A stretch of DNA of 64,000 bases from an uncultured Actinomycetes bacterium (GTDB lineage Bacteria > Actinomycetota > Actinomycetes > Actinomycetales > Bifidobacteriaceae): positions 184,729-248,728 of the forward strand of contig OMWX01000003.1 in NCBI GenBank assembly GCA_900314875.1, read 5' to 3'. The notes below the pieces were generated by a model. It was not told the origin of the DNA. It worked only from the letters and a program-made list of their open reading frames with translations, and ran no database searches. Within the stretch, counting starts at the first letter, position 1. The number at the start of each line of letters is the position of its first letter. The translations under genes and the position numbers were made by a program. Shown here in pieces: positions 3,605 through 56,334 of this stretch.

Positions 3605-3669
3605 GAAGACAGCAAATAACAGCGACAAACAAATAACCTGAACAAAACAAACAACCGAAAGGAAAAAAT

Positions 3670-11554: not shown

Positions 11555-12077
11555 TGGAAGCCTCCGCCATTTCTTTGAGTTCCTGACGATAATCTGCCAG
11601 GGATTGCGCGAGTTCTGCATCTGTTACGGAAAGAATGCTGACTGCCAGAAGAGCCGCGTTTACGGCTCCGGATCGGCCGATTGCGGTTGTCGCGACGGGG
11701 ATTCCGCCGGGCATCTGCACGATTGACAGAAGCGAGTCGAGTCCTGAAAGCGCTCGGCTTTGCACGGGAACTCCGATAACGGGCAGCGTGGTTTGTGCGG
11801 CTATCATTCCGGGAAGATGAGCTGCTCCCCCGGCTCCGGCGATGATTGCGCGAATGCCTTTATCTCGGGCGGAATGCGCGAAGTCGGCCATAAGGTCGGG
11901 AGTGCGATGCGCGGAAACGACCTGTTTGACGTAGGGCACGCCGAAACGCTCGAGAGTATCGCAGGCATTTTTCATGGTCTCCCAGTCGCTGGAAGAACCC
12001 ATAACCACTGCGACCAAAGGTGTTTCAGCAGTTTCGCCTGCGCTTGCGCTCTGCGTTTTTTCCTGTGAAGATGTCAT
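11538..12077 (-). CDS. purE: N5-carboxyaminoimidazole ribonucleotide mutase
   Basis: [18 protein letters not shown] and [11 protein letters not shown] are canonical PurE class I motifs. Confidence 0.93.
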
Positions 12078-12364
12078 TTTTCCTCCGCAATCAGACCTTA
12101 ATTCAGCATGAAATATTTATGTATTTATTATACCCGTCCGCCTGTTCATATCTGTTTGACTTTCATGCTGAGACCGGCTGTTTGTTTTTGCAGAGAAACT
12201 TTCACAGTCTTAATATCTTTCTTCCCTTGTTTTAAGCCGAAATCGGGATTTGTACAAGGCTTGTTTTATCCTGAAATGTTCAGCTTCGGGCAATCAATTT
12301 TGACAGCCCGCCGCAGAACGCCGTTAAACACTAAACACGAAAAATCGTTCAAAAAGGAGCGAAA

Positions 12365-15300
12365 ATGACAGGCGAATCCTTCGCAAAGAAAACAAACAAA
12401 ACACCCAAATACAACGATTATGCCATTTCTTTGGACATCGGAAACGGTTCTTGCGGATGGTGCGCAATAGAACCGAATTACAGACTTTTGCGTTTGAAAG
12501 GCAAGAATGCCATAGGAGTTCGCCTGTTCGATCCCGCTCAGACCGCCGCAAAACGCCGAGGATACAGAACCGCGCGTCGCAGACTTTCCCGCAGAAGATG
12601 GAGACTTCGTCTGCTTAACGAGATTTTTGCAGAGGAAATTAACAAAATCGATAAGAATTTCTTTGCTCGGCAGCGTTATTCGTGGGTTCACAAGGATGAT
12701 GAAAACAACCGCGAAAACTGGTACGGAAGCTCTCTTTTCGGAGACAAAAAACGCGATATTCAGTTCCATAAGGATTACCCGACTGTTTACCATCTTCGCG
12801 AAAAATTAATGAATGACGACGAAAAACACGATTTGCGCGAAATATACTTTGCCATTCACCATATTTTGAAGTATCGCGGACATTTCATTACCGAAGGCAG
12901 TCTGAAAGCCGCAACGGAAAAATTTGAAGCAAAAGATATAGAAAAACTGTTCAAACATTTGTACAAAAATCTGTGCAAATCTGTCGAAAAAGAATATTCC
13001 GAATACAAAGAAGATTCAGACTCTGACGAAATCATCAAAGAACTTGATTTGAAGAAGTTCACTGAAATAATCTGCAATTTTGACAAAACAAAAGCAGAAC
13101 GAGAAGAGGAAGCCAATAAATGCGTTACCGAAAGCGCAAAATTCAAAAGCCTTAAAAAGGAAGATAAATGCAGAGCAGACGCTCTGGAAAAATTATGCGC
13201 TCAAATTATTAAGGCTTTGTTTGACTACAAATGTGATTTTCGCAAGATTTTGGGATACGACGCAAAAGATGAATCTTTACAGGAAAAATTCAAATTCAAT
13301 ATCTCTGCAGAAGGAAAAATCGATGCGTTATATGAAGCAATTTCCGAAGAAGAATGCGTTTTAATAGAAGAAGTCGAATCTGCTTACAGCAAATTTACTT
13401 TGATGAAACTGCTCGGAGATTGCAAAACAGTCTCAGAATCAATGATTGCCAAATACGATTTGCACAAGGAACAGCTGAAATTCGTAAAACAGCATTTTGC
13501 AAACACTGCAGAAGACAAGAAAGAATTCAAAAATAATTATCGCGCAATAATAGGTATCGACGAAGAAAAAAACGACGAAGAAAAAGATAAAGCAGCAAAG
13601 AAAGATAAACCAGTAAAGAAAGATAAAGCAGTAAAATATTTCGGCGACAAAATATGGGAACTGTATAAGAAGCAGAATCCCGAAGCGGATGATAAAGCAA
13701 AAACTGTCAAATGTTTTGGAATTTTCACCTTCAGCAAAGGCAGTCTCGAGGACAACAGTCTGTTTCCCGTGCAGCGCGGAACAGACAACGGAGTCATACC
13801 TCATCAGCTTCATCTGATCGAATTGCAAAAAATCATTGAAAAACAAGGCAAATACTATGATTTCTTGCGAGAAGCCGTTTCAATAAAAGACAAGGACGAA
13901 AACAAACTGGAATGTCTTTTGAAATTCAGAGTGCCTTATTACGTCGGACCGCTTGTTTCTCCCGGCGATATGAATAACGGCGACAACAGCGAAAATCACT
14001 GGATGGTCAGAAAAAATAACGAAACAATCACGCCGTTTAATTTTTATAAAGTCGTAGACACGTCAGCTTCCGCACAAGAGTTTATAAACCGTCTGACGGG
14101 AACGGACTCATATCTTTTGGGAGAACCGACTCTTCCGAAAAATTCACTGCTTTATCAGGAATACGAAGTTTTAAGCGAAATAAACAACATTCGCATAATT
14201 GGAAATAACAGCAGAAAAAGACTGAATGAAAATCAAAAAGATGCCTATTTCGATCTTTTTAAAAATCAAAAAAGGGTGACAAAATCTGCTGCATTGAACA
14301 AAGCGGAACTGAAAAAAGATGGCGATGTCATAACCGATTTTACAGGTTTGTCAAAAGAGACCGAATTTGCAAGTTCTTTGTCGTCTTATCATGATTTGAA
14401 GAAAGTTTTTGAAGATGATTTTATTTGGAAAAACCGGGATTTAATGGAAAAAATCATTGAAATTCAAACGGTTTTTGAAGATAAAGATTGCCGTGAAGAA
14501 CAATTGCGCAATCTTAAAATCCTAAGTGAACAAGAAATCAGTCAGCTGAGCAAAATTCACTACACAGGCTGGGGAAGATTTTCAAAAAAACTTTTGAGTT
14601 CAAAAGTCATAAACTGCAATCTGAAAAATGATCGGACAGATGAAAAACACAGCGTTATTGAAATTCTTCGAGATCAGGCAGTTAATTTCATGGAGATTTT
14701 AACCAACCGCGATAACGGTTTTCAAGAATGGATTGAAGATCAGAACAAGCTGCAAAAAGATAAAACCGTCAATGATCTTATTGACAATATTGCCGCCGAC
14801 CCCAAAGTAAAACGAGGCGTCAAACAATCCATTGCCGTAATTGACGACATTATAAAAGCAAATAACGGCAAAGCACCCGAACGCATTTTCCTGGAAATGG
14901 CTGACGATCCTCAGCCCGGAGACGAAATAACAAAATCCAGAAGCAAGCGAATTAATAAACTCTACGAAAATTGCAAAGACATCCCGGATTATCTGAAAAA
15001 ACAATTAAAAGACAATGATTATAAAAACAGACTCAGCGACAAACGATATGCTTTGTATTTCTTGCAGCAAGGAAAAGATATGTACGACACGGAGAAATCC
15101 ATAGACATAGAAAAAATTTCCTCGCATTATGATGTCGACCATATTATTCCGCGCGCTCTTACTACAAACAATTCCTTGGATAATCTTGTTTTGGTTTCGA
15201 GAGCCGAAAATGCCCGAAAAAGCAAAGCAGCCGTGCTCGATCGCGAAATCATCAAGAAAAATAAAGGCTTTTGGGAAGGATTGCTGAATAATAAACTGAT

Positions 15301-16726
15301 TTCGCAAAACAAGTTCGATAATCTTTGCAGAGACAAAGAGTATTCTGAAAAGGAAAAGGAACGGTTTGTCAGCCGTTCTCTGGTTGAAACGCGCCAGATT
15401 ATCGCAAATATCAAGTCAGTTCTTAAAGCAAAATATCCCGATATCGACATTATCGGCTTAAATTCGCAGGTAACAAAAGATATGCGCAAATATTTAGGCT
15501 ACGCGATAAAAGACAGGGATATCAACGATTATCATCATGCGCAAGATGCTTTCTGTCTCGGAGTTGCGGGTCAGTTTGCGCAGAATCGCGTATTTTTTGA
15601 GCGAGGTCAGATTACGAACAGCTTGGGAGATTCATATAATATCTTCTACGAAAAATATGCGAAGAATATGAAAGAGAAAACTAAGGAAGGAAATAAAGTT
15701 GCTTCTTTAGGATTTATTGTCGGTTCCATGCAGTCCGAAAACGACGAACTGAAAACCAATAAAACAACAGGCGAAATCTGCTGGAGCGAAGAAGATAAAA
15801 ATTATGCCCGAAAAGTCATGGGATACAGCAAAATGCTTGTCACCAAAAAACTTGATTTCGACGGCGAACCCGCTTTATACAATGAAACCAGATACAAAAG
15901 AGACATCGGCAAAGAAATTCCTCTTGATAAGTCAAAAACGGCAAAGACTTCTGACGGAAAATATTTATACGGAGGTTTCGATTCCAAAAAAGTTGCTTAC
16001 ACGTGTCTTTATTTCGATAAGAAAAAGAAGAAAACATATCTCGGAGCAGTTTACACTCTGGACTTACCTCTCGCAGAAAAGGAAGGAGTACAAAAATGTT
16101 TGGAAAACAATGGGATTGACTGCATTGTTCTTGGTGAAAGATTATCTAAAGGACAATTGATTATAAAAGACGGTCATAGAACAACAATTTCTTCAGCAAC
16201 AGAATTAAATAATTTTCAACAGCTTTATTTAGACAAGAAAACCTATGAATTTATTCATTTTGTCGTAAATTCCAACACCTTGAACGAATTGAAACAGAAA
16301 CTTCAGAAAAACAGCAATTTAGAATTTTTGCCTGAAGACTCTGTCATAATAAACAAACTCAGAGATTCCTTTATACAAATACTTGCAAGCATTGCTGCAT
16401 ACTATCCGCTGTTTACGCAAATTCAAACAAAAAAGAAACAAGACGAATATCTTAAACAGTTTGATGAACATTTTGCTTCCGGATTAGGCAACACAGTGTA
16501 CAGCGATATAAAAGATTTTTACAAAAATTTGATCGAGGGCATGCATGCAAACAAAACGTGCAAAACCATAAATAAAGGATTAACCAAATCAATTGCCTCT
16601 TTTGGTCGATATCAAAGATCTTCGATAGAACTTGCTGATTCCGACATGATTATTTACCAGTCTGCAACGGGACTGTTTGAAAAGCGCGTTGCTGTCGGAG
16701 AGTTGAAGAAGCTGAAAGGATTGTAA
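12365..16726 (+). CDS. cas9: Type II-A CRISPR endonuclease Cas9 (1453 aa)
   Basis: RuvC-I is YAISLDIGNGSCGWCAI. The Arg-rich bridge helix is RRGYRTARRRLSRRRWRLRLL. RuvC-II is IFLEMAD. HNH is YDVDHIIPRALTTNNSLDNLVLVSRAENARKSK. RuvC-III is NDYHHAQDAF. It is followed by cas1-cas2-csn2 and an array. Confidence 0.95.
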   Translation: MTGESFAKKTNKTPKYNDYAISLDIGNGSCGWCAIEPNYRLLRLKGKNAIGVRLFDPAQTAAKRRGYRTARRRLSRRRWRLRLLNEIFAEEINKIDKNFFARQRYSWVHKDDENNRENWYGSSLFGDKKRDIQFHKDYPTVYHLREKLMNDDEKHDLREIYFAIHHILKYRGHFITEGSLKAATEKFEAKDIEKLFKHLYKNLCKSVEKEYSEYKEDSDSDEIIKELDLKKFTEIICNFDKTKAEREEEANKCVTESAKFKSLKKEDKCRADALEKLCAQIIKALFDYKCDFRKILGYDAKDESLQEKFKFNISAEGKIDALYEAISEEECVLIEEVESAYSKFTLMKLLGDCKTVSESMIAKYDLHKEQLKFVKQHFANTAEDKKEFKNNYRAIIGIDEEKNDEEKDKAAKKDKPVKKDKAVKYFGDKIWELYKKQNPEADDKAKTVKCFGIFTFSKGSLEDNSLFPVQRGTDNGVIPHQLHLIELQKIIEKQGKYYDFLREAVSIKDKDENKLECLLKFRVPYYVGPLVSPGDMNNGDNSENHWMVRKNNETITPFNFYKVVDTSASAQEFINRLTGTDSYLLGEPTLPKNSLLYQEYEVLSEINNIRIIGNNSRKRLNENQKDAYFDLFKNQKRVTKSAALNKAELKKDGDVITDFTGLSKETEFASSLSSYHDLKKVFEDDFIWKNRDLMEKIIEIQTVFEDKDCREEQLRNLKILSEQEISQLSKIHYTGWGRFSKKLLSSKVINCNLKNDRTDEKHSVIEILRDQAVNFMEILTNRDNGFQEWIEDQNKLQKDKTVNDLIDNIAADPKVKRGVKQSIAVIDDIIKANNGKAPERIFLEMADDPQPGDEITKSRSKRINKLYENCKDIPDYLKKQLKDNDYKNRLSDKRYALYFLQQGKDMYDTEKSIDIEKISSHYDVDHIIPRALTTNNSLDNLVLVSRAENARKSKAAVLDREIIKKNKGFWEGLLNNKLISQNKFDNLCRDKEYSEKEKERFVSRSLVETRQIIANIKSVLKAKYPDIDIIGLNSQVTKDMRKYLGYAIKDRDINDYHHAQDAFCLGVAGQFAQNRVFFERGQITNSLGDSYNIFYEKYAKNMKEKTKEGNKVASLGFIVGSMQSENDELKTNKTTGEICWSEEDKNYARKVMGYSKMLVTKKLDFDGEPALYNETRYKRDIGKEIPLDKSKTAKTSDGKYLYGGFDSKKVAYTCLYFDKKKKKTYLGAVYTLDLPLAEKEGVQKCLENNGIDCIVLGERLSKGQLIIKDGHRTTISSATELNNFQQLYLDKKTYEFIHFVVNSNTLNELKQKLQKNSNLEFLPEDSVIINKLRDSFIQILASIAAYYPLFTQIQTKKKQDEYLKQFDEHFASGLGNTVYSDIKDFYKNLIEGMHANKTCKTINKGLTKSIASFGRYQRSSIELADSDMIIYQSATGLFEKRVAVGELKKLKGL

Positions 16727-16730
16727 AATT

Positions 16731-16760
16731 AAAAATCCCTCCCGTTCGGGAGGGATTTTT
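16731..16760. terminator. Bidirectional intrinsic terminator after cas9, also the 3' end of the antisense tracrRNA candidate
   Basis: aaaaatccctccc-gttc-gggagggattttt is a perfect stem with a 4-nt loop. It is flanked by an A-tract on one side and a T-tract on the other. Confidence 0.8.
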
Positions 16761-16900
16761 TAATAAGACCATAAGGTCGACTAAAAGTCTTTATAGCTTA
16801 TAGCCAAACTCATTGCTTGACTCATTGCTTGATTTCAACTTGTGTCCGTCATATCAGCCAATTAGAACACATACTTCGGAACTGCGACCAACAGTTCCTT
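16731..16900 (-). ncRNA. tracrRNA candidate, antisense and between cas9 and cas1
   Basis: Plus-strand 16831-16870 (gatttcaacttgtgtccgtcatatcagccaattagaacac) resembles the CRISPR repeat, with a 19-nt exact core at 16842-16860. A minus-strand transcript would therefore carry the anti-repeat. Downstream on the minus strand are small hairpins and the 16731-16760 terminator. An extended -10 (TGgTATAGT, minus strand, 16905-16913) lies upstream. Confidence 0.6.
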
Positions 16901-16927
16901 AATAACTATACCACACAAGGAGGTCTT

Positions 16928-17803
16928 TTGGCTTGGAGAAATGTTGTCGTGACGAAACATTCGAAGATTACGGCAAAAATGCAGCATATTATCGTGCAGA
17001 CAGACGGCGAAGTTTTTCAGTTTCCGCTTTCGGATATCGGAATTGTCCTTATCGAAACGACAAGAGCAGTCATATCAACCTATGCCCTGTCCCAGTGCGC
17101 GAAAAACCATATCAAAGTCATTTCATGCGATGAGAAAGGAATGCCCATAAGCGAAATAACTCCCTACGCATACAACAAAAACAGGGTCGCAAACCTGCGC
17201 AGTCAAATACAGTGGAAGCAAAGCGACAAAGACCGGCTCTGGCAGCATGTCGTAAAACAGAAAATACTCCACCAGGCGGCAGTCCTCGAACGGTTCGAAC
17301 GTCCGGGAACAGAAGAGATCAAAGCGCTTGCCGACGAAGTGACGACAGGAGATCCGAACAATCGCGAGGGAGTTGCGGCACACATGTATTTTCCCCGACT
17401 GTACGGATACGAGTTCACCCGCGAAAATTCAGAAAATTCGCTTAACCCGATGCTCGACTACGGCTACGCGATCGTACTGTCCGAAGTTTCCCGTCAGATT
17501 TGCGCACACGGATACTTAACCGAATTCGGAATCCACCACTGCAACGACAAAAACCCGTTCAACCTGGCATGCGATCTGATGGAACCGTTCCGCCCGTTCG
17601 TCGACACGCGAGTCAAACAGCTGGAAAACGATTTTCTTAAACCGGAAACCAAAGTAAAACTGGTCGAACTCATGCGCGAAGACATTCCCGAACTGAACAC
17701 GACAGTCACGAAACTGATTGACCGGTTCGTCCGAGACAGTCTGGCATTCCTGTCCAAAGGCAAAGATTTGCCCGAATTCAAAGCAGTTCGGGAGCAAAAA
17801 TGA
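16928..17803 (+). CDS. cas1: CRISPR integrase Cas1 (type II)
   Basis: An in-frame TTG at 16928 lies 5-6 nt after AAGGAGG. It gives (M)AWRNVVVTKHSKI, which is collinear with the MAGWRTVVV start of streptococcal type II Cas1. The ATG at 16817 in the ORF track would translate through the anti-repeat. Confidence 0.9.
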   Translation: MAWRNVVVTKHSKITAKMQHIIVQTDGEVFQFPLSDIGIVLIETTRAVISTYALSQCAKNHIKVISCDEKGMPISEITPYAYNKNRVANLRSQIQWKQSDKDRLWQHVVKQKILHQAAVLERFERPGTEEIKALADEVTTGDPNNREGVAAHMYFPRLYGYEFTRENSENSLNPMLDYGYAIVLSEVSRQICAHGYLTEFGIHHCNDKNPFNLACDLMEPFRPFVDTRVKQLENDFLKPETKVKLVELMREDIPELNTTVTKLIDRFVRDSLAFLSKGKDLPEFKAVREQK

Positions 17804-18120
17804 GGTACAGAGTCATGCGGGTAATGATATTTTTCGACCTTCCCGTCAAAACTGCCGCACAGCGGAAAAACTACAGAATTTTCAGGAAAAAACTTCTGGA
17901 GGAAGGATTTCTTATGATTCAGGAATCAGTGTACGTGCGAATAGTCGTCGACCGCGATTCCGCGCGATTTTTAGAAGAGCGGGTAGCGGGATTCGCTCCG
18001 CCGAAAGGCATTGTCCAATCGCTTATCGTAACGGAAAAACAGTATGCTTCCATGCGATTTTTCGTCGGCGGACAGTCGACGGACGTGAGAAACTCCGACG
18101 CAAGGACGGTTGTCATATGA
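17800..18120 (+). CDS. cas2: CRISPR-associated endoribonuclease Cas2
   Basis: 106 aa, starting MRYRVMRVMIFFDLPV with a ferredoxin-like pattern. ATGA overlap with the cas1 stop. Confidence 0.9.
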   Translation: MRYRVMRVMIFFDLPVKTAAQRKNYRIFRKKLLEEGFLMIQESVYVRIVVDRDSARFLEERVAGFAPPKGIVQSLIVTEKQYASMRFFVGGQSTDVRNSDARTVVI

Positions 18121-18785
18121 TTAAAACGATTTACGCTTATCCTTTCGAACCGATGGAACTGGAAAAGGGAATGAACGTCATCGCACTGGACTCGCCCGAC
18201 ACGCTCTATCAATTCGTTTCGGGATTGAAAACGGAAAAAGACAATTTTGTTATCGCCGACGAGGAAGACCAGACGATTCCCATCGAGAAAAACGTGCTGT
18301 TCGTCGGAGACCCGGCAAACGACATCGATTTAGAAAAACTGTATTTAAGATCGTCAATACAAAAGCTGATTTCCGGGATGGATTTGGATGAGATTCACAA
18401 TATTAAAGCCAAATTCCTCATGTTTCACGAGTCTGTCGGCGCGGCTTTCGTCAACTCGGATATTCCGCTGGGATTAAACGACGAGGAAGAATACGAACTG
18501 AAAACAATGATTTCTTGCCTGAAACCGCATTTTATTTTCCCGCAAGTCAGCTCTTTTTATGATGTTATCCAAACAGTATTGGACACGGCGGGCGCATTGT
18601 GCGAAAAACGAACGATTGTGCTGATGAACGCGTGTCAATATTGTTCGCCCGATCAGGTACAATATTTACAGACAGATATTTTGAGACAAGATTTACAGGT
18701 CATATGCCTGGAGCGAAATGACCGTCGCATTGATATGTCGGGAGTAAGGAACCTTTTTGTCGACAAGGATTTTGTGCAATTTTAA
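18117..18785 (+). CDS. csn2: Csn2 (type II-A signature protein), 222 aa
   Basis: The ATG at 18117 overlaps the cas2 stop (ATGA). Size, position (cas9-cas1-cas2-X-array) and acidic, Csn2-like composition fit. The upstream part of the 355-aa track ORF is out of context. Confidence 0.8.
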   Translation: MIKTIYAYPFEPMELEKGMNVIALDSPDTLYQFVSGLKTEKDNFVIADEEDQTIPIEKNVLFVGDPANDIDLEKLYLRSSIQKLISGMDLDEIHNIKAKFLMFHESVGAAFVNSDIPLGLNDEEEYELKTMISCLKPHFIFPQVSSFYDVIQTVLDTAGALCEKRTIVLMNACQYCSPDQVQYLQTDILRQDLQVICLERNDRRIDMSGVRNLFVDKDFVQF

Positions 18786-18815
18786 GAAAATGCTCAGGAT
18801 TCTTTAAGGCTATAG

Positions 18816-19511
18816 GTTTCAGGTGTCCGTCATATCAGCCAGGTAGACCACAAGCCTCGCCGCTACCCCAACCCATCTTGTGTTTCAGGTGTCCGTCATA
18901 TCAGCCAGGTAGACCACCCATTATAAGGTGTTCGCAACCTACGGTAAGTTTCAGGTGTCCGTCATATCAGCCAGGTAGACCACATTTTGTCTGAGATCCA
19001 ACCCCACATGCCGGTTTCAGGTGTCCGTCATATCAGCCAGGTAGACCACGGAGCGGAAGGATGGTATTCTACGCCCTCCGTTTCAGGTGTCCGTCATATC
19101 AGCCAGGTAGACCACTGCGTTAAAATGTTTGTTTGAATGGTTTTGGTTTCAGGTGTCCGTCATATCAGCCAGGTAGACCACTTTCAACAAGATTGAACAC
19201 TAATAATAACAGTTTCAGGTGTCCGTCATATCAGCCAGGTAGACCACAAGGGCGGTAGCCTTTCTTCTTCAGTTTGCGTTTCAGGTGTCCGTCATATCAG
19301 CCAGGTAGACCACGTCGACCGTGCTTTTTTTACTACGCTCACTGTTTCAGGTGTCCGTCATATCAGCCAGGTAGACCACAGCATTTCGACAATTACAGGC
19401 AAAGCGTTGGTTTCAGGTGTCCGTCATATCAGCCAGGTAGACCACACGAATTAGCAAAAACTCTTTCACAGGCTGGTTTCAGGTGTCCGTCATATCAGCC
19501 AGGTAGACCAC
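18816..19511 (+). CRISPR. CRISPR array with 11 identical 36-bp repeats (GTTTCAGGTGTCCGTCATATCAGCCAGGTAGACCAC) and 10 spacers of 30 bp
   Basis: Repeats start at 18816, 18882, 18948, 19014, 19080, 19146, 19212, 19278, 19344, 19410 and 19476, an exact 66-bp period. I indexed every unit by hand and all repeats are identical. Confidence 0.97.
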
Positions 19512-19541
19512 CCAAACTTAAATGCAAATTCGACAGAAAGC
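19512..19541 (+). other. Spacer-length slot after the last repeat that matches the chromosome at 55447-55475 (29/30), with no downstream repeat
   Basis: ccaaacttaaatgcaaattcgacagaaag occurs at 19512-19540 and at 55447-55475. Identity starts exactly at the first nt after repeat 11. Confidence 0.85.
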
Positions 19542-20089
19542 CGTCTGCGCTGCGGCATGCGTATAACCGCCTCCGCCGCAAATCCCGAGAGAACCGATGC
19601 GTTTCTCATCCGCCGTTCGAATGCGCCGCAGTAACGACCGCATGCTTCCGATTGTCCGAATCATGCCGGCAGATTCATATCATCAAATTCTCTTCGGCTT
19701 ATCTTCAGCTTCTTCCCGGCTTCATGCCGGCGAATTGCAGAATCGGCGGTTCATTCAGCTGTTATCGTCGAATATTAGCAAAATTCATATGTTTTAATCG
19801 AAAATTTCCGATATTCATTTCGCATTAGCACAGGACAAAACCGCATTTGCGCAGAAGCAAAACCGCATTCGCGCAGGAGACAAAAATCCCTCAGAACAAA
19901 AATCTCTGTACAAATATTGTTTTATAACATTTATTTTGCAATAATAATATAAACAAAACGGTTTGACCGAAACGCGCAAACCGCACAAACACAGCTTTAA
20001 CAAACACAGCTTTAACGGGCATTGCTAAATGCAAACTTTGTTTAACAAACTTTGCTTTAAAGCAATTTTGCACAGAAAGGCGCAAGATT

Positions 20090-20311
20090 ATGCAGCACAG
20101 AGATCGAACTCAGTTTTTGGAATGGATGCGCGAAAGAAATATTCTTCAGAAAGATTTGGCAGAGGTTTTGGGACTTTCACTCGGCGCGGTAAACCAAAAA
20201 TTGCAGGGAAACACGGGTTTCACCGAAAAAGACTTTATAAAACTGTTCAACCATTACGGGTTATCCGCCGACTTTGTTATGGGAATAACCGCAAAACCGT
20301 TTGTATTCTAA
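20090..20311 (+). CDS. Small XRE-family helix-turn-helix protein (73 aa)
   Basis: ILQKDLAEVLGLSLGAVNQKLQG is a typical HTH_XRE motif. GAAAGG lies 9 nt upstream of the ATG, and tandem 15-bp duplications lie upstream. Confidence 0.6.
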   Translation: MQHRDRTQFLEWMRERNILQKDLAEVLGLSLGAVNQKLQGNTGFTEKDFIKLFNHYGLSADFVMGITAKPFVF

Positions 20312-20419
20312 GGTTTTCTCTTTTAAGACGATTTCATTCCGGAAACAAAACCGAAGCAAAATCGGAACAAAAATCGCGATTTGTCGTAAATTTTGCCGGA
20401 TATTTTTCTTGATTTGGTG

Positions 20420-20986
20420 TAATTTCAGGGAAAAATTATACGCTGAACTCAATCAACAAATTCAGAAAAAATACGCAAAACTGTTGCATACGCCGTATAT
20501 TCTTCATGCTGACGACCCGGGCGAAAAAGACGGAATCACGTGCCTGTCGGTCTATATGACAAAGCTTCTCAGACTTCGGGACTTCCGATTTGGCAGATAG
20601 CTGCGATTATGTATCAGGAGTCGGCTTTTGATCCGTCCGCGTATGCCGACGACGCGAATGGCGGAACTTGGGGACTTTTTCAGATGAATCGTATCGTATG
20701 GTGCTCAGTGCACGAGGCGGGGAACATGGAATGAAACGCCGGACGGCATAACCGACCCGATGATTCACGCAGAATACGGCGGAAAATATTAAAGGAGCGT
20801 CTGGAAAATATCCGGTCCGCAAAACAACAATATCCGACGGCAGATTTTGCAAGCATTTCCGATTTAGATGCGCTTGTTATCGCTCATAATGCGGGCGAAA
20901 CGACTCTGATAAATTATCCTGACAAGCTTCCCGATATTACAAAAAATTATCTTTCCGACGTTCACAGACTTACTTCTTGTCAGTAA
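20420..20986 (+). pseudogene. Frameshifted and truncated SLT-domain lytic transglycosylase (mobile-element type)
   Basis: The SLT core IAAIMYQESAFDPSAYADDANGGTWGLFQMN is in one frame. The upstream part (..KKYAKLLHTPYILHADDPGEKDG..) and downstream part (..LKERLENIRSAKQQYPTADFASISDLDALVIAHNAGETTLINYP..) are in other frames. There is no signal peptide or intact start. Confidence 0.6.
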
Positions 20987-21020
20987 ATTCGTATCATTGT
21001 TCAAGAACGGCAAAAATCGT

Positions 21021-21056
21021 CTGTCTGCATCTTTGCGGCAGGCGGTTTTTATTTTT
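21021..21056 (+). terminator. Intrinsic terminator after the SLT pseudogene
   Basis: Stem ctgtctgc / gcaggcgg (2 G-U pairs), a 9-nt loop, then tttttattttt. Confidence 0.55.
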
Positions 21057-21440
21057 AAAATTTTTTAAGAAATGCCAGAATAATTTCATAATATTCATCA
21101 AAAAGATTTTCGTTGATTTTTCGGCGATTTCATAATGATTTCATAATGATTTTCCAATGATTTTCGCGATGCTTTCGCAATATTTTCACGGCAATTTTCT
21201 AAAAAATTTTGAAACAATATTCCATTGTCCGATACATCGTGATACGATACTTCATGATACGAAATAACATAACACACAACATAACGCACAACATAAACAC
21301 AACTTAAAACTCGCAAAATTAAAAATCGCAAAACAATTTCGAATTTCAAAATAAAATTCAAAATAGCGAAACAAAATGCGAGAACATTTACAAAAAACGG
21401 GCATCCGCCCGGCACAAAAACGCAAATAAGGAGGTGTATC

Positions 21441-21773
21441 ATCGACATCCAGCTCAAGCGCGGTCTTCTGGACGTATGCGTTCTCGCTTCGATAAAAAAC
21501 GAAGACTCATACGGTTACAAAATCATGAAAGATGTCAAACCCTACCTGGAGCTGTCGGAATCGACACTGTACACGATTCTCAAGCGGCTCGAAGCGGCAC
21601 ACATGCTGACAGTCAAAACCATGACATACAGCGGAAGACTGCGAAAATACTATCACATAACCGAAAACGGAATTGCCCGGCTGAACGACTTTGAAAACGA
21701 CTGGCAGGAAATGCTTCGCATACACCAGTTCATAACCGACAATTCGCAACCGACGAAAGCAGAGAATGAGTAG
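21441..21773 (+). CDS. PadR-family transcriptional regulator (no canonical start codon)
   Basis: The in-frame translation from 21441 reads (I)DIQLKRGLLDVCVLASIKNEDSYGYKIMKDVKPYLELSESTLYTILKRLE, a PadR winged helix. The only codon at proper spacing after AAGGAGG is ATC. Confidence 0.75.
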   Translation: MDIQLKRGLLDVCVLASIKNEDSYGYKIMKDVKPYLELSESTLYTILKRLEAAHMLTVKTMTYSGRLRKYYHITENGIARLNDFENDWQEMLRIHQFITDNSQPTKAENE

Positions 21774-22386
21774 AGAAATATTTTTACAGACGCTGCGCAG
21801 AAAACTGGCTTTTCTGCCGCAGAACGAAATCGAAGAGCGCATAGCCTTTTATGCGGAAATAATCGACGAACGCATGGCAGACGGAATGTCTGAAAATGAC
21901 GCTGTGGCAGCCGCCGGGTCTCCCGACGAGATTGCGCAGCAGATGATGTGCGAAACACCGTTCAAAAAGATTATTTCAGAAAACGTAAAATCTAAAAGCA
22001 CAAAAAACTGGAATCCCCGGAAAACGGCTCTAATACTTTTGACAATCCCCCTGTGGGCTCCGCTGGCTTTCGCGCTGACAATATTTACCGGCGCAATATT
22101 CTTCTCGATTTGGATAATTGCATTTGCTTTGATGTTTGCGGCAGCCCTGTGTCTTTTCAGTTTTATTCTTTCCATACCGCAAAGCATTGAATTTTTCAAA
22201 GAAGGAGCAACAGCCGCGGGAATCTTTATTCTTGGCGAAGGCTTGTGCGGCACGGGACTTGCAATACTCGTGCTGTCATTCAGCGATTCGATTATCTCCA
22301 AAACAAAAGAACTTTCGAACAAGCTGGTGCTGAAAGTAAAATCTTTCGTCGCCAAGAAGGAGAACCGCTCTTATCATGAAGCATAA
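21766..22386 (+). CDS. DUF1700-family membrane protein (PadR-operon partner)
   Basis: The N-terminus SREIFLQTLRRKLAFLPQNEIEERIAFYAEIIDE is typical of DUF1700. It has C-terminal TM helices and overlaps the PadR stop. Confidence 0.75.
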   Translation: MSREIFLQTLRRKLAFLPQNEIEERIAFYAEIIDERMADGMSENDAVAAAGSPDEIAQQMMCETPFKKIISENVKSKSTKNWNPRKTALILLTIPLWAPLAFALTIFTGAIFFSIWIIAFALMFAAALCLFSFILSIPQSIEFFKEGATAAGIFILGEGLCGTGLAILVLSFSDSIISKTKELSNKLVLKVKSFVAKKENRSYHEA

Positions 22387-23233
22387 AAAAATATTCATCA
22401 CAGGCATTGCAGTATTTTCAGCAGGTCTTATTGCCTGCTTTTCAAGCATTGCAGCCTCAGGATTCAGCTACAGCAAATTGCAGAGCGAATACATGGAAAC
22501 CCGCGAATACGAAATAACCGACAATTTCAAAAAAATAGATTTGTCGGGCGATAAAATGAATAATATCGTTTTCGAACGTTCAAACAGCAGCAAAGCAAAA
22601 GTCGTATGCACTGTGAGAAAAAATTCGCAATGCGACGCAAAAAGCGAATCAGACACTCTTAAGATCAGCAGCAAAACTGAGAAAAAGGGTTGGTCTTTCT
22701 CATTCAATTTCGGTCCTTTCAGCAGCGATTCGACCGAAATTAAGGTATATCTGCCTTCCGAAAGCTACGATTCGCTTACAGTCAAATCGTCTTGGGGCAA
22801 CGTAAACATGCCGGCAGATTTCAAATTCAATGCGGCAAAAATCGAAACATCCTCAGGCAACATTAATTGGAGCGCGCAAATCAGCACAAAAGCAGAAGCA
22901 GAAACAAGCGCGGGAAACATCAGATTCAGCAATATGACCGCAGAAAATCTCAACCTTAAAACATCTGCCGGCAACATTGAATTGAACAATACCGTCTGCA
23001 AAAACAGCCTGGAAGCGGAAACCAACATGGGCAACATCAATTTCAATCACAGCGATGCGAAAAGCATTAACGCAGAAAGCAACATGGGAAACATAAGAGG
23101 AACGCTGCTCACCGGCAAGCAATTCTCAACAAAAACCAACATGGGAAGCGCAAAAGTGCCGGAATCGACGGGAGATCAAAAATGCGAGCTGGTCACAAAC
23201 ATGGGAGATATTGACGTCAGCATTGCAAAATAG
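22376..23233 (+). CDS. DUF4097-family beta-strand-repeat protein (putative adhesin-like)
   Basis: It has an N-terminal TM or signal segment. Repeated SAGNI/NMGNI units occur (SSGNINW, SAGNIRF, SAGNIEL, NMGNINF, NMGNIRG, NMGSAKV, NMGDIDV). Confidence 0.75.
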   Translation: MKHKKIFITGIAVFSAGLIACFSSIAASGFSYSKLQSEYMETREYEITDNFKKIDLSGDKMNNIVFERSNSSKAKVVCTVRKNSQCDAKSESDTLKISSKTEKKGWSFSFNFGPFSSDSTEIKVYLPSESYDSLTVKSSWGNVNMPADFKFNAAKIETSSGNINWSAQISTKAEAETSAGNIRFSNMTAENLNLKTSAGNIELNNTVCKNSLEAETNMGNINFNHSDAKSINAESNMGNIRGTLLTGKQFSTKTNMGSAKVPESTGDQKCELVTNMGDIDVSIAK

Positions 23234-23309
23234 AAAGGCATTCTCCCCCTGCTCAAAGGTTCTGTCAGGTTATCTCTGTCAGGTTATCTGACATCAGGGC
23301 GAAAAATCA

Positions 23310-23352
23310 GGGCGGAAGGTCAGGCTTATTTGCCGGTTTCCGCCCTTTTTTG
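23310..23352 (+). terminator. Intrinsic terminator of the PadR operon
   Basis: gggcggaa ... ttccgccc (8-bp stem) followed by tttttt. Confidence 0.6.
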
Positions 23353-23400
23353 ACATTTCGCCTGTTCCTATTTTTAACATCTGTCTGCTGTTTTCATGCT

Positions 23401-23430
23401 TTTTGCTGTTTTTTGCTGTTTTTTGCTGTT
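23401..23430. repeat. Tandem repeat of 10 bp x3 (ttttgctgtt)
   Basis: Three perfect head-to-tail copies, with a degenerate copy upstream. Confidence 0.9.
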
Positions 23431-23487
23431 TCTTTCTTGCTTTTCTTGATTTTCTTGTTTTTTTTCTTTTGCCGCATTTTTCGATAT

Positions 23488-23556
23488 CTGTTTAACGTCT
23501 GTTTAACGTCTGTTTAACGTCTGTTTAACGTCTGTTTAACGTCTGTTTAACGTCTG
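23488..23556. repeat. Tandem repeat of 11 bp x6 (ctgtttaacgt)
   Basis: Six perfect head-to-tail copies at 23488-23553 plus a partial 7th copy (ctg). Confidence 0.95.
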
Positions 23557-23894
23557 CCCGCTTATCTGCTCATTTTTATGCTAATCCGTCGCGGCTGCTT
23601 CGGCATTTTAAGACTCAGCCGTACGCTGTTAAAAACTGCAAAACATCACAAAACACAGCAAAACGTCGAGACAACAGAATATGCCGGCACACTGATACAT
23701 CCTGCGACACGTCCTGCAACACATCCTGCGACACGCCGAGACACGCCGGGACGCGCCGCAAAAAATAAGGCTTTCCGCAAGTTCTGCCTTCATGTTTGAA
23801 ACCAATTGTCCTCACAGGTGCGTAACGTTAATCGGTTCTGCTCCGATAAGCGCAGAACATACGCAAAAGAAAATAAAATTCTATAAGGAGCATA

Positions 23895-24257
23895 ATGAAA
23901 AAGAAAAAACTTGCCTGGATTATCGGCATAATTCTGGCATTAATAATATGCTGCGCCATAAACGAAGCGGCTTCAACACCCGAGGAAATGCCGAATCTGG
24001 TCGGAAAGTCGGTTTCAGAAGCGAAAAATGAACTGAATTCCATAGGATTTAAAAATGTAGAAGTTACAAACAAAATAACGACGGGGACGGTAAAATCTCA
24101 GAATTTCGAGCCCGGAAGCAAGCATAAAAAAACTGAAAAAGTCGTGCTTGAGGCCGAGAGAACCAAAGAAACAAAACAAAAAGAGAAAGAAAAGCAGGAA
24201 GAAAAGCAGGAAGAGCTGAACAAGAAAGCCGAAGAGCTTAAAAGCGAGCAAGGGTAA
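23895..24257 (+). CDS. Small membrane-anchored PASTA-domain protein with a Lys/Glu-rich tail
   Basis: TM segment LAWIIGIILALIICCAI, then MPNLVGKSVSEAKNELNSIGFKNVEV (PASTA-like), then a KEKEKQEEKQEE tail. AGGAG lies upstream. Confidence 0.6.
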   Translation: MKKKKLAWIIGIILALIICCAINEAASTPEEMPNLVGKSVSEAKNELNSIGFKNVEVTNKITTGTVKSQNFEPGSKHKKTEKVVLEAERTKETKQKEKEKQEEKQEELNKKAEELKSEQG

Positions 24258-24333
24258 GAATACAGATACAAATACAAATAAGAAAAAGTGCAGAGCTTTT
24301 CAGCTTCGCACTTTTGTCCACTTGTCTTGCAAG

Positions 24334-24406
24334 TGCCCCGGGCCGGATTCGAACCGGCGACCTCCGACTTAGAAGGACGTTGCTCTATCCCCTGAGCTAC
24401 CAGGGC
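24334..24406 (-). tRNA. tRNA-Arg (anticodon TCT), 73 nt, no encoded CCA
   Basis: The reverse complement folds as a cloverleaf: acceptor GCCCTGG/CCGGGGC, D stem GCTC/GAGC, anticodon loop CTTCTAA, T arm GCCGG-TTCGAAT-CCGGC. From memory, it looks close to E. coli argU around the anticodon arm. The anticodon stem has two non-Watson-Crick pairs. Confidence 0.85.
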
Positions 24407-28267: not shown

Positions 28268-28372
28268 AAAACACAGTTCAAGGAAACACAGTCCGGAGAA
28301 ACACAGTCCGGAGAAACACAGTCCGGAGAAACACAGTCCGGAGAAACACAGTCCGGAGAAACACAGCTGCGA
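28268..28372. repeat. Tandem repeat of 15 bp (gaaacacagtccgga), 5 perfect copies plus degenerate flanking copies
   Basis: Perfect copies lie at 28283-28357. Degenerate copies lie at 28268-28282 and 28358-28372. The repeat is intergenic between the alr stop and the dgt start. Confidence 0.95.
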
Positions 28373-55446: not shown

Positions 55447-55475
55447 CCAAACTTAAATGCAAATTCGACAGAAAG
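55447..55475. repeat. Chromosomal copy of the 29-nt sequence found after the last CRISPR repeat (protospacer-like)
   Basis: It is identical to 19512-19540 and ends 8 nt before the ATG at 55483. Confidence 0.9.
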
Positions 55476-55482
55476 GCAAAAA

Positions 55483-56334
55483 ATGTCTCAGCAGGCAACC
55501 GTAACAATAGAAGGAATAGTCGGCTCAGATCCCAAGAAAACAGGACACGAAGGCTCAATTCCCTTCTGCACGTTCCGAGTCGGTTCGAATCGCGGATTCT
55601 GGAACAGAAAAACAAATCAGTGGCAGGATTCTCCTACAACATGGACGACAATAAAATGCTATAAAAACCTTGCATTGAACGTTTTATCATCCGTTTCGAA
55701 AGGAGACCCGGTAATTATAAGCGGAAACCTGGTAACAGATTCGTGGGAGCGTGACGGAGTCAGAAGGTCGCAGTTAAGCATCGAAGCGACTGCGGTGGGA
55801 CATAATCTGACATCAGGAACCTCGGTCTACAGAAGAAACATAAGGGAAAACGCTTATCAGAAAGCAAAATACGATTCGCAAGCATATTCTTCACCGCAGC
55901 CGGGGTTGCAGACGGCAGCGCAGCAGATGGCAGCGCAGCAGACAGAATTGAATCAGACGAAATTCAAACAAGCAGAGTCATCATTGCCGCAAAACGGTTC
56001 AAACAATGCAGAATTGTCAAATAATGCCGAATCGGGCGAAGAATTTCCGGGATTTGAATTCGAATCCGGCGCGAAAAATACGACAGAAAATAAAATGCAA
56101 TTCAATAGATTACAGTCCGATGAAACACCGTCCGATGAAACAAGACCTGACGAAATAAACAAGGACAGCCATATCGATAAATCAACAGACAAAACAACAG
56201 ACAAAACAACAGACAAACTGCCTTACAAAACAAACGAAAGCGGAAATCAAAGCAAACAGAAACAAAAACCGGCCGAAAACAAAAACGGAAAACAAGCAAA
56301 ATTCGGCAGAAAGGATATGAAAACGCTGGCTTAA
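55483..56334 (+). CDS. Single-stranded DNA-binding protein paralog with a long repetitive tail and no acidic C-terminal tip
   Basis: It has an OB fold (ATVTIEGIVGSDP..FCTFRVGSN..TTWTTIKCYKNLALNV..GDPVIISGNL). The tail carries the repeats SDETPSDETRPDE and STDKTTDKTTDK, and the protein ends ..RKDMKTLA. Confidence 0.8.
   Translation: MSQQATVTIEGIVGSDPKKTGHEGSIPFCTFRVGSNRGFWNRKTNQWQDSPTTWTTIKCYKNLALNVLSSVSKGDPVIISGNLVTDSWERDGVRRSQLSIEATAVGHNLTSGTSVYRRNIRENAYQKAKYDSQAYSSPQPGLQTAAQQMAAQQTELNQTKFKQAESSLPQNGSNNAELSNNAESGEEFPGFEFESGAKNTTENKMQFNRLQSDETPSDETRPDEINKDSHIDKSTDKTTDKTTDKLPYKTNESGNQSKQKQKPAENKNGKQAKFGRKDMKTLA

What the first reader, a model, noticed from the sequence alone, without database searches (positions are those of the whole stretch)
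19512..19541. Orphan self-matching spacer in the slot after the last CRISPR repeat, identical (29/30) to a site just upstream of an SSB-paralog gene 36 kb away
Repeat 11 ends at 19511. The next 29 nt (ccaaacttaaatgcaaattcgacagaaag, 19512-19540) recur exactly at 55447-55475. Identity starts at the first nt after the repeat: the preceding base is c in one copy and t in the other. It ends one nt short of the 30-nt spacer length used by all 10 bona fide spacers. The flanks are otherwise unrelated. No recognisable repeat follows 19541, with about 8/36 matches in register. In type II systems a spacer needs the downstream repeat for tracrRNA pairing and RNase III processing. A spacer whose 3' repeat has been lost would therefore be inert, which could explain how a self-targeting spacer is tolerated. 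The single mismatch falls at the PAM-proximal end of the slot. The target lies 8 nt upstream of the ATG of the SSB paralog, in its RBS/5'UTR. Possible readings are a historical autoimmunity event resolved by repeat loss, or residual Cas9 binding that regulates that gene.
Basis: partly seen in the sequence, partly recalled or inferred. Interest (0 to 1): 0.75.

Follow-up and report, generated by a model that had tools for sequence, protein, structure and literature searches.

The report
Frozen self-derived spacer at CRISPR array end
The 29 bases after the last repeat of this type II-A CRISPR array are most likely an old spacer copied from the bacterium's own chromosome that lost its downstream repeat; it cannot make a guide RNA and its chromosomal match lacks the motif Cas9 needs, so it is a harmless fossil and not a regulator or a live autoimmunity problem.

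Summary
CCAAACTTAAATGCAAATTCGACAGAAAG lies at 19512-19540, directly after the 11th and last perfect repeat. It recurs only at 55447-55475, 8 nt before the ATG of an SSB-like gene.

The locus is an intact type II-A system (Cas9, Cas1, Cas2, Csn2, a minus-strand tracrRNA) in an uncultured ruminant-gut Bifidobacteriaceae species. Strain comparison shows that spacers enter at the csn2 side, so the 29-mer sits at the trailer end.

Nine array lineages share no spacer with each other. All 23 arrays whose 3' end is on the contig finish with perfect repeat, the same 29-mer, then the same trailer. No strain has a 12th repeat. The 29-mer is therefore a fixed, species-wide trailer element and not a recent acquisition.

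Sixteen protospacers mapped on a related mobile-element contig give a 3' PAM of NNG (G at +3 in 14 of 16). The self target is followed by CAA, which is not a canonical PAM. The sequence after the 29-mer cannot pair with the tracrRNA.

Best reading: a PAM-less, harmless self-derived spacer that became fixed when its downstream repeat was lost, which makes it immune to repeat-repeat deletion. Autoimmunity rescue is not needed, and Cas9-mediated regulation is unsupported. This is a known kind of thing and of modest interest.

The parts
12365..16726 (+). cas9 (1453 aa), SpCas9-like type II-A
   Evidence: Pfam Cas9_REC, BH, HNH_4, RuvC and PI domains. PDB sequence hits to SpCas9-family structures at E 1e-137 or better. 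The RuvC and HNH motif stretches (ISLDIGNGS, DVDHIIP) are identical between the two alleles aligned.
16731..16880 (-). Putative tracrRNA. The anti-repeat is the reverse complement of about 16832-16870. It is followed by hairpins and a strong intrinsic terminator (about 16731-16760). The 5' end is not determined.
   Evidence: A repeat-like stretch lies on the same strand as the repeats (D2). MFE is -48.8 kcal/mol, z = -5.1. The repeat:anti-repeat duplex is -47.9 kcal/mol with a bulge.
16928..17803 (+). cas1
   Evidence: Pfam Cas_Cas1. The 291-aa gene call in the identical contigs corresponds to this start.
17800..18120 (+). cas2
   Evidence: Pfam CRISPR_Cas2.
18117..18785 (+). csn2, the type II-A signature gene
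   Evidence: NCBIfam TIGR01866 cas_Csn2 at 67.6 bits against a cutoff of 35. Weak Pfam Cas_Csn2 hit.
18786..18815 (+). Leader-proximal 30 nt between the csn2 stop and repeat 1. The promoter has not been located.
   Evidence: New spacers in other strains enter directly after this segment. The sequence is identical in L058.
18816..19511 (+). CRISPR array: 11 identical 36-nt repeats and ten 30-nt spacers
19512..19540 (+). The 29-mer: a fixed spacer-like fossil in the slot after the last repeat, with no downstream repeat
   Evidence: Identical in 23 contigs covering 9 unrelated array lineages.
19541..20089 (.). Trailer. It is non-coding, has no repeat remnant, and is polymorphic from its first base (19541 is C or T).
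   Evidence: No genes are called here except a 43-aa minus-strand ORF near 19891-20022.
55447..55475 (+). Chromosomal copy of the 29-mer (the presumed protospacer). It lies in the 5' region of the SSB-like gene and overlaps the Shine-Dalgarno-like GAAAGG.
   Evidence: Invariant in 19 contigs.
55476..55482 (+). 3' flank of the target, g|caaaaa. Position +3 is A whether the slot is counted as 29 or 30 nt, so the canonical NNG PAM is absent.
   Evidence: compared with the PAM derived.
55483..56334 (+). SSB-like gene (283 aa). It has an N-terminal OB fold and a long low-complexity tail with no acidic C-terminal tip. It is restricted to this species.
   Evidence: Pfam SSB. NCBIfam SSB models score below their cutoffs. 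Only two 90%-identity clusters were found among 5.8 billion proteins. It lies between an M13 peptidase gene and proS.

Best explanation
The 29-mer is the remnant of a genuine spacer that the Cas1-Cas2-Csn2 machinery once copied from the host chromosome, just upstream of the SSB-like gene.

The target has no canonical PAM (NNG), so the spacer was harmless from the start. Harmless self-derived spacers are the only ones expected to survive in a lineage with active Cas9. A later deletion removed its last base and the whole downstream repeat.

From then on it could not be processed into a crRNA. In type II systems the guide is the spacer plus the 5' part of the repeat downstream of it, paired with tracrRNA. 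It also could not be lost through repeat-repeat recombination. The arrays of this species repeatedly collapse and regrow, and the 29-mer stays fixed as the first bases of the trailer.

Shown here:
- geometry and position of the 29-mer
- array polarity
- fixation across strains
- absence of a downstream repeat or any tracrRNA pairing
- the PAM, and its absence at the target

Inferred:
- origin by spacer acquisition
- the deletion of the downstream repeat
- the order of events
For: - Geometry: identity starts at the first base after a sharply defined repeat end and runs 29 nt in an array whose spacers are 30 nt. There are only two copies, with 0 expected by chance.
- Active, intact type II-A system: Cas9, Cas1, Cas2, Csn2 and a tracrRNA. 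153 unique spacers were recovered.
- Polarity: five extra spacers at the csn2 end in L003, L005 and L006 put the 29-mer in the oldest position. The 3'-side PAM confirms the + orientation.
- Fixation: 9 multi-spacer array lineages share no spacer. All 23 arrays whose 3' end is on the contig end in perfect repeat, 29-mer, same trailer. This fits collapse-and-repopulate dynamics with a perfect terminal repeat, as discussed in PMC8047081.
- No downstream repeat: alignment is below the shuffle mean, and the duplex with the anti-repeat is -16 against -48 kcal/mol.
- PAM: 16 protospacers lie on a related Prim-Pol/primase element (L057), against 0 hits for shuffled spacers. G is at +3 in 14 of 16 against a background of 0.29, binomial P about 2e-6. 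The self target has A at +3.
- The target is ordinary chromosome. Its neighbours are housekeeping genes.
- Missing PAM and defective adjacent repeats are recognised categories of tolerated self-targeting spacers (PMC6990116).
Against: - No strain or relative keeps a 12th repeat, so the deletion step is inferred and not seen.
- Csn2 and the SSB-like protein have no relatives closer than the species itself, so no outgroup exists.
- PAM-less acquisition is rare in type II-A systems (general knowledge). The missing PAM therefore also fits a non-spacer origin.
- The PAM comes from a diverged relative of the real targets (3-7 mismatches per protospacer). Two of 16 sites lack the G, and one of these (AAACAA) resembles the self-target flank (CAAAAA), so a weak non-canonical PAM is not excluded.
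- Polymorphic sites number 0 of 29 in the 29-mer against 28 of 291 in the next 291 nt of trailer (P about 0.05). This could hint at constraint.
- The whole genome could not be searched for further copies.
Confidence: 0.68

Rival explanations
1. Autoimmunity escape. The spacer was lethal or costly when acquired, and survivors were those that deleted the downstream repeat. The PAM at the target may have been functional then, for example CAG, and mutated afterwards.
For: The geometry is the same as in the best explanation. Cas9 appears intact and the system is active, so a PAM-flanked self spacer would have been selected against. The deletion of the repeat begins exactly at the PAM-proximal end of the slot.
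Against: The present target flank has A at +3 where 14 of 16 protospacers have G. That flank is invariant in 19 contigs, so there is no trace of an earlier PAM. The commonest escape, repeat-repeat deletion of the spacer, would leave nothing behind. Persistence is explained without selection, because a unit with no downstream repeat cannot be lost by recombination.
Confidence: 0.12
2. Not a spacer at all. The 29-bp duplication is a scar of a rearrangement, for example an ancestral element in which the array was directly followed by the SSB-like gene, later separated, or another illegitimate recombination that happened to end at the repeat.
For: The cas locus lies in a low-GC island with mobile-element debris, namely an XRE-like gene and a broken SLT transglycosylase. 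Csn2 and the SSB-like gene are both restricted to this species. There is no PAM at the target. The sequence is a fixed trailer in all strains.
Against: It requires one breakpoint exactly at the repeat end and a length within one base of the spacer length. No other similarity exists between the flanks. The 36 kb between the copies consists of housekeeping genes (dnaG, alr, glmS, prfB, ftsEX, coaX, citrate synthase) with no integrase, so the copies are not att sites of an element. No tRNA-derived repeat was found.
Confidence: 0.12
3. A functional shared element. The 29-mer would be a regulatory sequence, such as an operator, promoter or 5' UTR module, or an RNA mimic carried on the 3' tail of the pre-crRNA, kept identical at both sites by selection. 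Alternatively it would be a non-canonical guide that lets Cas9 control the SSB-like gene.
For: Polymorphic sites are 0 of 29 against about 10% in the adjacent trailer (P about 0.05). The target overlaps the SD-like GAAAGG and a possible -10 of the SSB-like gene. The region upstream of the neighbouring XRE-like gene shares pieces of the 29-mer (ACAGAAAGGC, AAATGCAAA, CAAACTT), but only at 72% over 43 nt with E 0.35.
Against: Exact 29/29 identity with abrupt ends, one of them at a repeat boundary, is not how operators or promoters recur. Only two copies exist. The array transcript is sense to the mRNA, not antisense. Terminator-like hairpins at 19841-19876 lie between the divergent minus-strand ORF (19891-20022) and the 29-mer, so antisense read-through from it looks unlikely. 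A Cas9 guide must lie 5' of a tracrRNA-pairing repeat, and none follows. There is no PAM and no complementarity between the tracrRNA locus and the target.
Confidence: 0.06

Closest known systems
Tolerated self-targeting spacers (Stern et al. 2010 survey; review PMC6990116)
   Same: A perfect or near-perfect match of an array unit to the host's own non-mobile chromosome. It is made ineffective by a missing PAM and by a defect in the adjacent repeat. The review lists both as the reasons such spacers were classed as non-effective.
   Different: Here the downstream repeat is entirely absent and not merely mutated. The unit sits at the trailer end and not the leader end. It is fixed species-wide across arrays that share no other spacer.
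Trailer-end anchor spacers, degenerate terminal repeats and array collapse-and-repopulate (review PMC8047081)
   Same: The trailer end is conserved while the rest of the array turns over. [quoted passage not shown] Units protected from repeat-repeat recombination persist.
   Different: The usual case is a terminal repeat with a few 3' substitutions or a truncation. Here nothing of that repeat is left, and the functional terminal repeat is perfect. The anchor unit is therefore outside the array proper.
Non-canonical Cas9 guides that regulate host genes: Francisella novicida scaRNA and Streptococcus pyogenes long-form tracrRNA (from my own knowledge, not tested against papers here)
   Same: A type II system with a sequence match in the promoter or 5' UTR region of a chromosomal gene.
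   Different: Those guides carry the targeting segment 5' of a tracrRNA-pairing or Cas9-binding scaffold, use partial complementarity, and have a PAM at the target. Here there is no scaffold 3' of the 29-mer and no canonical PAM.
Streptococcus canis Cas9 (NNG PAM; from my own knowledge)
   Same: An SpCas9-like type II-A nuclease with a minimal 3' NNG PAM, as inferred here from 16 protospacers.
   Different: No close sequence relationship was tested. The PAM here is inferred in silico from a diverged target and may extend further, since positions +5 and +6 are A-rich.

Membership tests
Type II-A CRISPR-Cas locus | Cas9 with RuvC, HNH, REC and PI domains | tested here: met
   Pfam domains. PDB hits to SpCas9 at E about 1e-137.
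Type II-A CRISPR-Cas locus | Adaptation genes cas1 and cas2 plus the subtype signature csn2 | tested here: met
   Pfam Cas1 and Cas2. TIGR01866 Csn2 at 67.6 bits against a cutoff of 35.
Type II-A CRISPR-Cas locus | tracrRNA with an anti-repeat complementary to the repeat, plus a terminator | tested here: met
   Computational only. Minus-strand RNA at 16731-16880, duplex -47.9 kcal/mol, terminator present, z = -5.1. No Rfam family was hit. Expression was not tested.
Type II-A CRISPR-Cas locus | Polarised spacer acquisition at the leader end and a 3' PAM | tested here: met
   Extra spacers at the csn2-proximal end. G at +3 on the 3' side in 14 of 16 protospacers, with no 5' signal.
Bona fide CRISPR spacer | Begins exactly at the end of a repeat | tested here: met
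Bona fide CRISPR spacer | Has the spacer length of the array (30, rarely 31 nt) | tested here: inconclusive
   Identity is 29 nt. Position 30 is C or T in the arrays and G at the target.
Bona fide CRISPR spacer | Followed by a repeat | tested here: not met
   No repeat remnant. No pairing with tracrRNA. No 12th repeat in any of the 23 arrays whose 3' end is on the contig.
Bona fide CRISPR spacer | Protospacer flanked by the system's PAM | tested here: not met
   The PAM is NNG. The target flank is CAA, or GCA if the slot is counted as 29 nt, and ACC in the flipped orientation.
Self-targeting spacer made ineffective (Stern et al. categories) | Matches the host's own chromosome outside the array, in non-mobile DNA | tested here: met
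   There is no relative of the SSB-like gene or copy of the 29-mer in IMG/VR.
Self-targeting spacer made ineffective (Stern et al. categories) | An inactivating feature: missing PAM, defective adjacent repeat, or lost cas genes | tested here: met
   Missing PAM and absent downstream repeat. The cas genes are intact.
Regulatory non-canonical Cas9 guide (scaRNA or tracr-L type) | Targeting segment located 5' of a tracrRNA-pairing or Cas9-binding scaffold | tested here: not met
Regulatory non-canonical Cas9 guide (scaRNA or tracr-L type) | PAM next to the regulated target | tested here: not met
Regulatory non-canonical Cas9 guide (scaRNA or tracr-L type) | The RNA is expressed and bound by Cas9, and target expression changes | not testable with these tools
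   Needs RNA-seq, RIP-seq and genetics.
attL/attR direct repeats of an integrated element | Integrase and mobile-element genes between the two copies, with the segment variably present | tested here: not met
   The 36-kb interval carries dnaG, alr, glmS, prfB, ftsEX, coaX, dapD, gltA and similar genes, with no integrase.

The most novel reading that the evidence does not exclude
The 29-mer is kept identical to the 5' region of the SSB-like gene by selection. It would act through a mechanism that is not canonical crRNA targeting. One option is that the 3' tail of the pre-crRNA carries a sense copy of the gene's ribosome-binding region and titrates a factor, linking expression of the SSB-like gene to array transcription. 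Another is an unconventional repeat-then-spacer RNA used by Cas9 without a PAM. The only hints are that no site is polymorphic in the 29-mer while about 10% of the adjacent trailer sites are (P about 0.05), and that the identity stops exactly where polymorphism begins.
Probability: 0.05. Interest if true: 0.7.

Novelty: new member of a known kind. Interest (0 to 1): 0.27.

Why it matters
As it stands this is a clean natural example of two known ideas. First, self-derived spacers that survive are the ones that cannot target, here for two independent reasons. Second, anything at the trailer end that is not bracketed by repeats becomes permanent while the array proper collapses and regrows.

It is useful as a caution for self-targeting surveys and anti-CRISPR prediction pipelines. 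A pipeline that counted this as a live self-targeting spacer would wrongly predict an anti-CRISPR or a regulatory circuit.

The by-products may be of more practical interest:
- an uncharacterised SpCas9-like nuclease from an uncultured ruminant Bifidobacteriaceae species
- its predicted tracrRNA
- an inferred minimal NNG PAM
- natural PI-domain allele swaps between strains

Tried and rejected
- **Opposite array orientation.** This would make 29-mer plus repeat 11 a complete crRNA. It is rejected by the leader-end polarity of new spacers, the minus-strand tracrRNA terminator and the 3'-side PAM. Duplex energies alone could not decide (-47.9 against -46.2 kcal/mol).
- **att sites or a mobile element between the copies.** Rejected on gene content. 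No tRNA-Arg-derived repeat was found.
- **Cryptic degenerate repeat or tracrRNA-pairing segment after the 29-mer.** None found.
- **Wider homology between the two flanks.** None found.
- **Spacer matches in public collections.**
  - INPHARED phages: none.
  - PLSDB plasmids: none.
  - Three spacer 20-mers and two degenerate spacer-family patterns in IMG/VR: none.
  - Only the degenerate pattern in JGI metagenomes succeeded.
- **The 29-mer core in other collections.** Absent from JGI metagenomes and IMG/VR. No relative of the SSB-like protein in IMG/VR.
- **Genome collection scan with Cas9.** It returned only a 41% relative from an Anaerovoracaceae MAG.
- **Relatives of Csn2 and the SSB-like protein.** Only conspecific clusters were found. 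The nearest Cas9 outside the species is about 42% identical. The 84% hit is the same species with a swapped PI domain.
- **PAM from overlapping spacers of different strains.** Only three flanks, which were not consistent enough to use.
- **T. denticola-type NAAAAN PAM.** I recalled this from memory and it would have fitted the target flank. The data do not support it.
- **Repeat sequence in the literature.** Not found.

Full report
**1. Observation**

The window holds 11 identical 36-nt repeats (GTTTCAGGTGTCCGTCATATCAGCCAGGTAGACCAC) at 18816-19511, separated by ten 30-nt spacers. The 29 nt after the last repeat (19512-19540, CCAAACTTAAATGCAAATTCGACAGAAAG) recur exactly at 55447-55475 on the same strand.

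With up to 3 mismatches allowed these are the only two copies in 64 kb. None occurred in 100 dinucleotide-preserving shuffles.

- The base before the match differs (c in the array, t at the target), and so does the base after it (c against g).
- The first and last bases of the ten real spacers vary, so the repeat boundary is sharp and the identity begins at the first base after it.
- No other spacer has a match elsewhere in the window.
- The flanks of the two copies share nothing else.
- The 140 nt from 19512 (29-mer plus the next 111 nt) contain no repeat remnant. The best local alignment to the repeat scores 14.5, against 17.3 +/- 3.0 for shuffles.

**2. The locus**

Upstream lie four genes:

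| Gene | Coordinates | Evidence |
|---|---|---|
| cas9 (1453 aa) | 12365-16726 | all Cas9 Pfam domains; SpCas9-like |
| cas1 | 16928-17803 | Pfam |
| cas2 | 17800-18120 | Pfam |
| csn2 | 18117-18785 | TIGR01866, 67.6 bits against cutoff 35 |

This is a type II-A system.

Between cas9 and cas1 a stretch on the same strand as the repeats resembles the repeat (16832-16870). Read on the minus strand it gives an RNA with three features:

- an anti-repeat that pairs with the whole repeat (-47.9 kcal/mol, with a bulge near the spacer-proximal end)
- internal hairpins
- a strong intrinsic terminator

Its MFE is -48.8 kcal/mol, z = -5.1. This is the predicted tracrRNA, so crRNAs are read on the + strand. 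Rfam has no model that hits it.

**3. Organism and relatives**

Identical or near-identical proteins occur in many metagenome assemblies and in NCBI MAGs labelled 'Bifidobacteriaceae bacterium'. The sample names point to ruminant gut studies.

Csn2 and the SSB-like protein have no relatives outside this species in the 5.8-billion-protein collection. The nearest Cas9 outside the species is about 42% identical. 'Related genomes' therefore means other strains of the same species.

**4. Strain comparison**

I collected the locus from more than 40 contigs.

- *Polarity.* L003, L005 and L006 carry five extra spacers at the csn2-proximal end of the window's array. The window has lost two internal spacers relative to L003 and L004. 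The leader is therefore on the csn2 side, and the 29-mer sits at the old, trailer end.
- *Turnover and fixation.* There are nine multi-spacer array lineages (8 to 27 repeats) that share no spacer with one another, not even the last one. All 23 arrays whose 3' end is on the contig end with a perfect repeat, the identical 29-mer and the same trailer. None has a 12th repeat.
- *Single-repeat contigs.* Seven Logan contigs show leader, one repeat, 29-mer. These could be real collapsed arrays or a k = 31 assembly collapse, and I could not decide.
- *Position 30.* Position 19541 is C in most strains and T in two. The target has G. The identity is therefore exactly 29 nt.
- *Polymorphism.* Across 15 distinct trailers, 28 of the next 291 positions are polymorphic and 0 of the 29 are. 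That gives P about 0.05, suggestive at most.
- *Target side.* The 250 nt upstream of the SSB-like gene are nearly invariant in 19 contigs, and the 29-mer there is invariant.

A perfect terminal repeat, complete spacer turnover and a fixed unit beyond the last repeat together match the 'array collapse and repopulate' picture. They also match the argument that units not bracketed by identical repeats escape recombinational loss (PMC8047081).

**5. PAM**

None of the 143 spacers searched (of the 153 recovered) matched cultured phages or plasmids. Five exact or degenerate patterns found nothing in IMG/VR.

Different strains carry variant versions of the same protospacer in the same register. I turned one such three-member family into a pattern with N at the wobble positions. 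It hit one JGI metagenome contig, JAEEGL011019747.1 (L057).

On the 4.8 kb held, 16 distinct protospacers from several strains map with 3-7 mismatches. Shuffled spacers give 0 hits. The region encodes a Prim-Pol/primase-helicase protein typical of phages and plasmids.

- The 3' flank has G at +3 in 14 of 16 sites, against background G of 0.29 (binomial P about 2e-6).
- Positions +5 and +6 are A-rich.
- The 5' flank shows no signal.

The PAM is therefore 3' NNG, possibly NNGNAA-like. This independently confirms the + orientation.

The spacers from strains with the window's PI-domain allele follow the same rule. The two exceptions sit in arrays whose other spacers have the G. They most likely reflect divergence between L057 and the true targets.

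**6. The self target**

The target is followed by g|CAAAAAATG. The flank does not fit NNG on any reading:

| Reading | Flank | Base at +3 |
|---|---|---|
| 30-nt slot | CAA | A |
| 29-nt slot | GCA | A |
| Flipped orientation | ACC | C |

The canonical PAM is absent in every case.

One caveat applies. One of the two non-G protospacer flanks (AAACAA) resembles CAAAAA, so weak recognition of NNA is not excluded.

The target lies in ordinary chromosome, between an M13 peptidase gene with its terminator and proS. It overlaps the SD-like GAAAGG of the SSB-like gene.

That gene has an N-terminal OB fold. It scores below the cutoffs of all NCBIfam SSB models and lacks an acidic C-terminal tip. 'Paralog' is plausible but was not tested.

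**7. Rivals tested**

- *att sites of an integrated element.* The 36 kb between the copies carry dnaG, a dGTPase, alr, glmS, coaX, ftsEX, prfB, dapD, citrate synthase and ABC transporters, with no integrase. Rejected.
- *Cryptic guide.* The sequence after the 29-mer pairs with the anti-repeat no better than random 36-mers (-16 kcal/mol, 35th percentile). The tracrRNA locus, cas9 upstream region and leader share no 9-mer with the 29-mer itself; the only two shared 9-mers (cas9 upstream region; 55394, 55485) lie outside it. Rejected.
- *Antisense RNA against the mRNA.* The terminator-like hairpins at 19841-19876 lie between the divergent minus-strand ORF (19891-20022) and the 29-mer, so antisense read-through from it looks unlikely. 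The array transcript is sense to the mRNA.
- *Shared operator or promoter.* The upstream region of the neighbouring XRE-like gene shares short pieces of the 29-mer, but only at E 0.35. Exact identity with abrupt ends, one of them at a repeat boundary, is not how such motifs recur.
- *Rearrangement scar.* Not excluded. It needs one breakpoint exactly at the repeat end and a length within one base of the spacer length.

**8. Interpretation**

The geometry argues strongly for an origin by spacer integration. The missing PAM would be unusual for a random type II-A acquisition. It is, however, exactly what is expected for a self-derived spacer that survived in a lineage with active Cas9. 'No PAM' and 'defective adjacent repeat' are the standard categories of tolerated self-targeting spacers (PMC6990116).

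Loss of the downstream repeat has two effects.

- It removes the only way to make a type II crRNA from the slot. This follows from established type II biogenesis: the guide is the spacer plus the 5' part of the repeat downstream of it, paired with tracrRNA and cut by RNase III.
- It protects the unit from repeat-repeat deletion. This explains its fixation without invoking selection.

I therefore favour 'harmless PAM-less self spacer, later fixed by loss of its repeat' at 0.68, with the rivals as follows:

| Reading | Confidence |
|---|---|
| Autoimmunity escape | 0.12 |
| Rearrangement scar | 0.12 |
| Functional element | 0.06 |

The acquisition and the deletion are inferred, because no intermediate state was found.

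**9. Verdict**

It is a new example of a known kind. Interest is modest at 0.27, mainly as a tidy illustration and as a caution for self-targeting screens.

By-products:
- a predicted tracrRNA and an NNG PAM for an uncharacterised Cas9
- PI-domain allele swaps between strains
- evidence for repeated array collapse in nature

Noticed in passing
window 15887-16726 (last ~840 nt of cas9); L058 7462-8301; L024: Strains of the same species carry cas9 alleles whose PI-domain-encoding 3' end does not align with the window's, while the rest of the gene and the flanks are 98-99% identical. Examples are P0063 (1475 aa), with 1477-aa, 1559-aa and 1567-aa gene calls in other contigs. This suggests natural PI-domain swapping and possibly different PAMs within one species.
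   Followed up: partly
window 13580-13640 region of cas9 (REC lobe, residues ~400-420): The 1453-aa and 1436-aa Cas9 alleles differ by a 17-aa lysine-rich indel that coincides with an 18-nt tandem repeat (13583-13635, 2.9 copies).
   Followed up: partly
L057 (JAEEGL011019747.1) 150-4230: Sixteen protospacers from many strains cluster on 4.8 kb of a Prim-Pol/primase-helicase element. Different strains hold variant copies of the same protospacer in the same register, which indicates acquisition hot spots and an arms race with one family of mobile elements.
   Followed up: partly
L016-L019, L046, L048, L049, L058 (Logan contigs): These contigs read leader, one repeat, 29-mer, trailer. They are either naturally collapsed single-repeat arrays or a k = 31 assembly collapse of the array. 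This was not resolved.
   Followed up: no
window 12000-24400: A low-GC island (0.38-0.46 against about 0.49 elsewhere) holds the cas locus, an XRE-like HTH gene (20090-20311), a broken SLT lytic transglycosylase (about 20540-20990, intact as 148 aa in L015 and L016) and a PadR-HAAS-DUF4097 operon. It ends next to tRNA-Arg(TCT) at 24333-24406. No tRNA-derived direct repeat was found.
   Followed up: partly
window 19821-20060, 21126-21333, 23261-23556, 28269-28366, 38409-38510: Many intergenic regions carry short perfect tandem repeats of 10-16 nt units, for example TCTGTTTAACG x6.4 at 23487-23556 and GAAACACAGTCCGGA x5.6 at 28283-28366. A related 15-nt unit occurs inside the tail of the SSB-like gene (56093-56152). 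Their function is unknown.
   Followed up: no
window 16731-16765: The hairpin after cas9 (AAAAATCCCTCCCGTTCGGGAGGGATTTTTT) has A and T runs on both sides. It probably terminates both cas9 (+ strand) and the tracrRNA (- strand).
   Followed up: partly
L047 4800-5336; L043 3233-3388: These are assembly artefacts at CRISPR repeats. L047 has a chimeric join of a repeat start to an unrelated membrane-protein gene. L043 has an N-gap flanked by a duplicated 'repeat + start of 29-mer'. Neither is biological.
   Followed up: yes
window 55444-55476: A canonical NNG-flanked protospacer (55444-55473, PAM AGG) lies 3 nt upstream of the observed match. The observed slot equals that protospacer shifted by +3 so that it includes the PAM. 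This could be a mis-registered acquisition, but it is expected by chance about one time in four.
   Followed up: no
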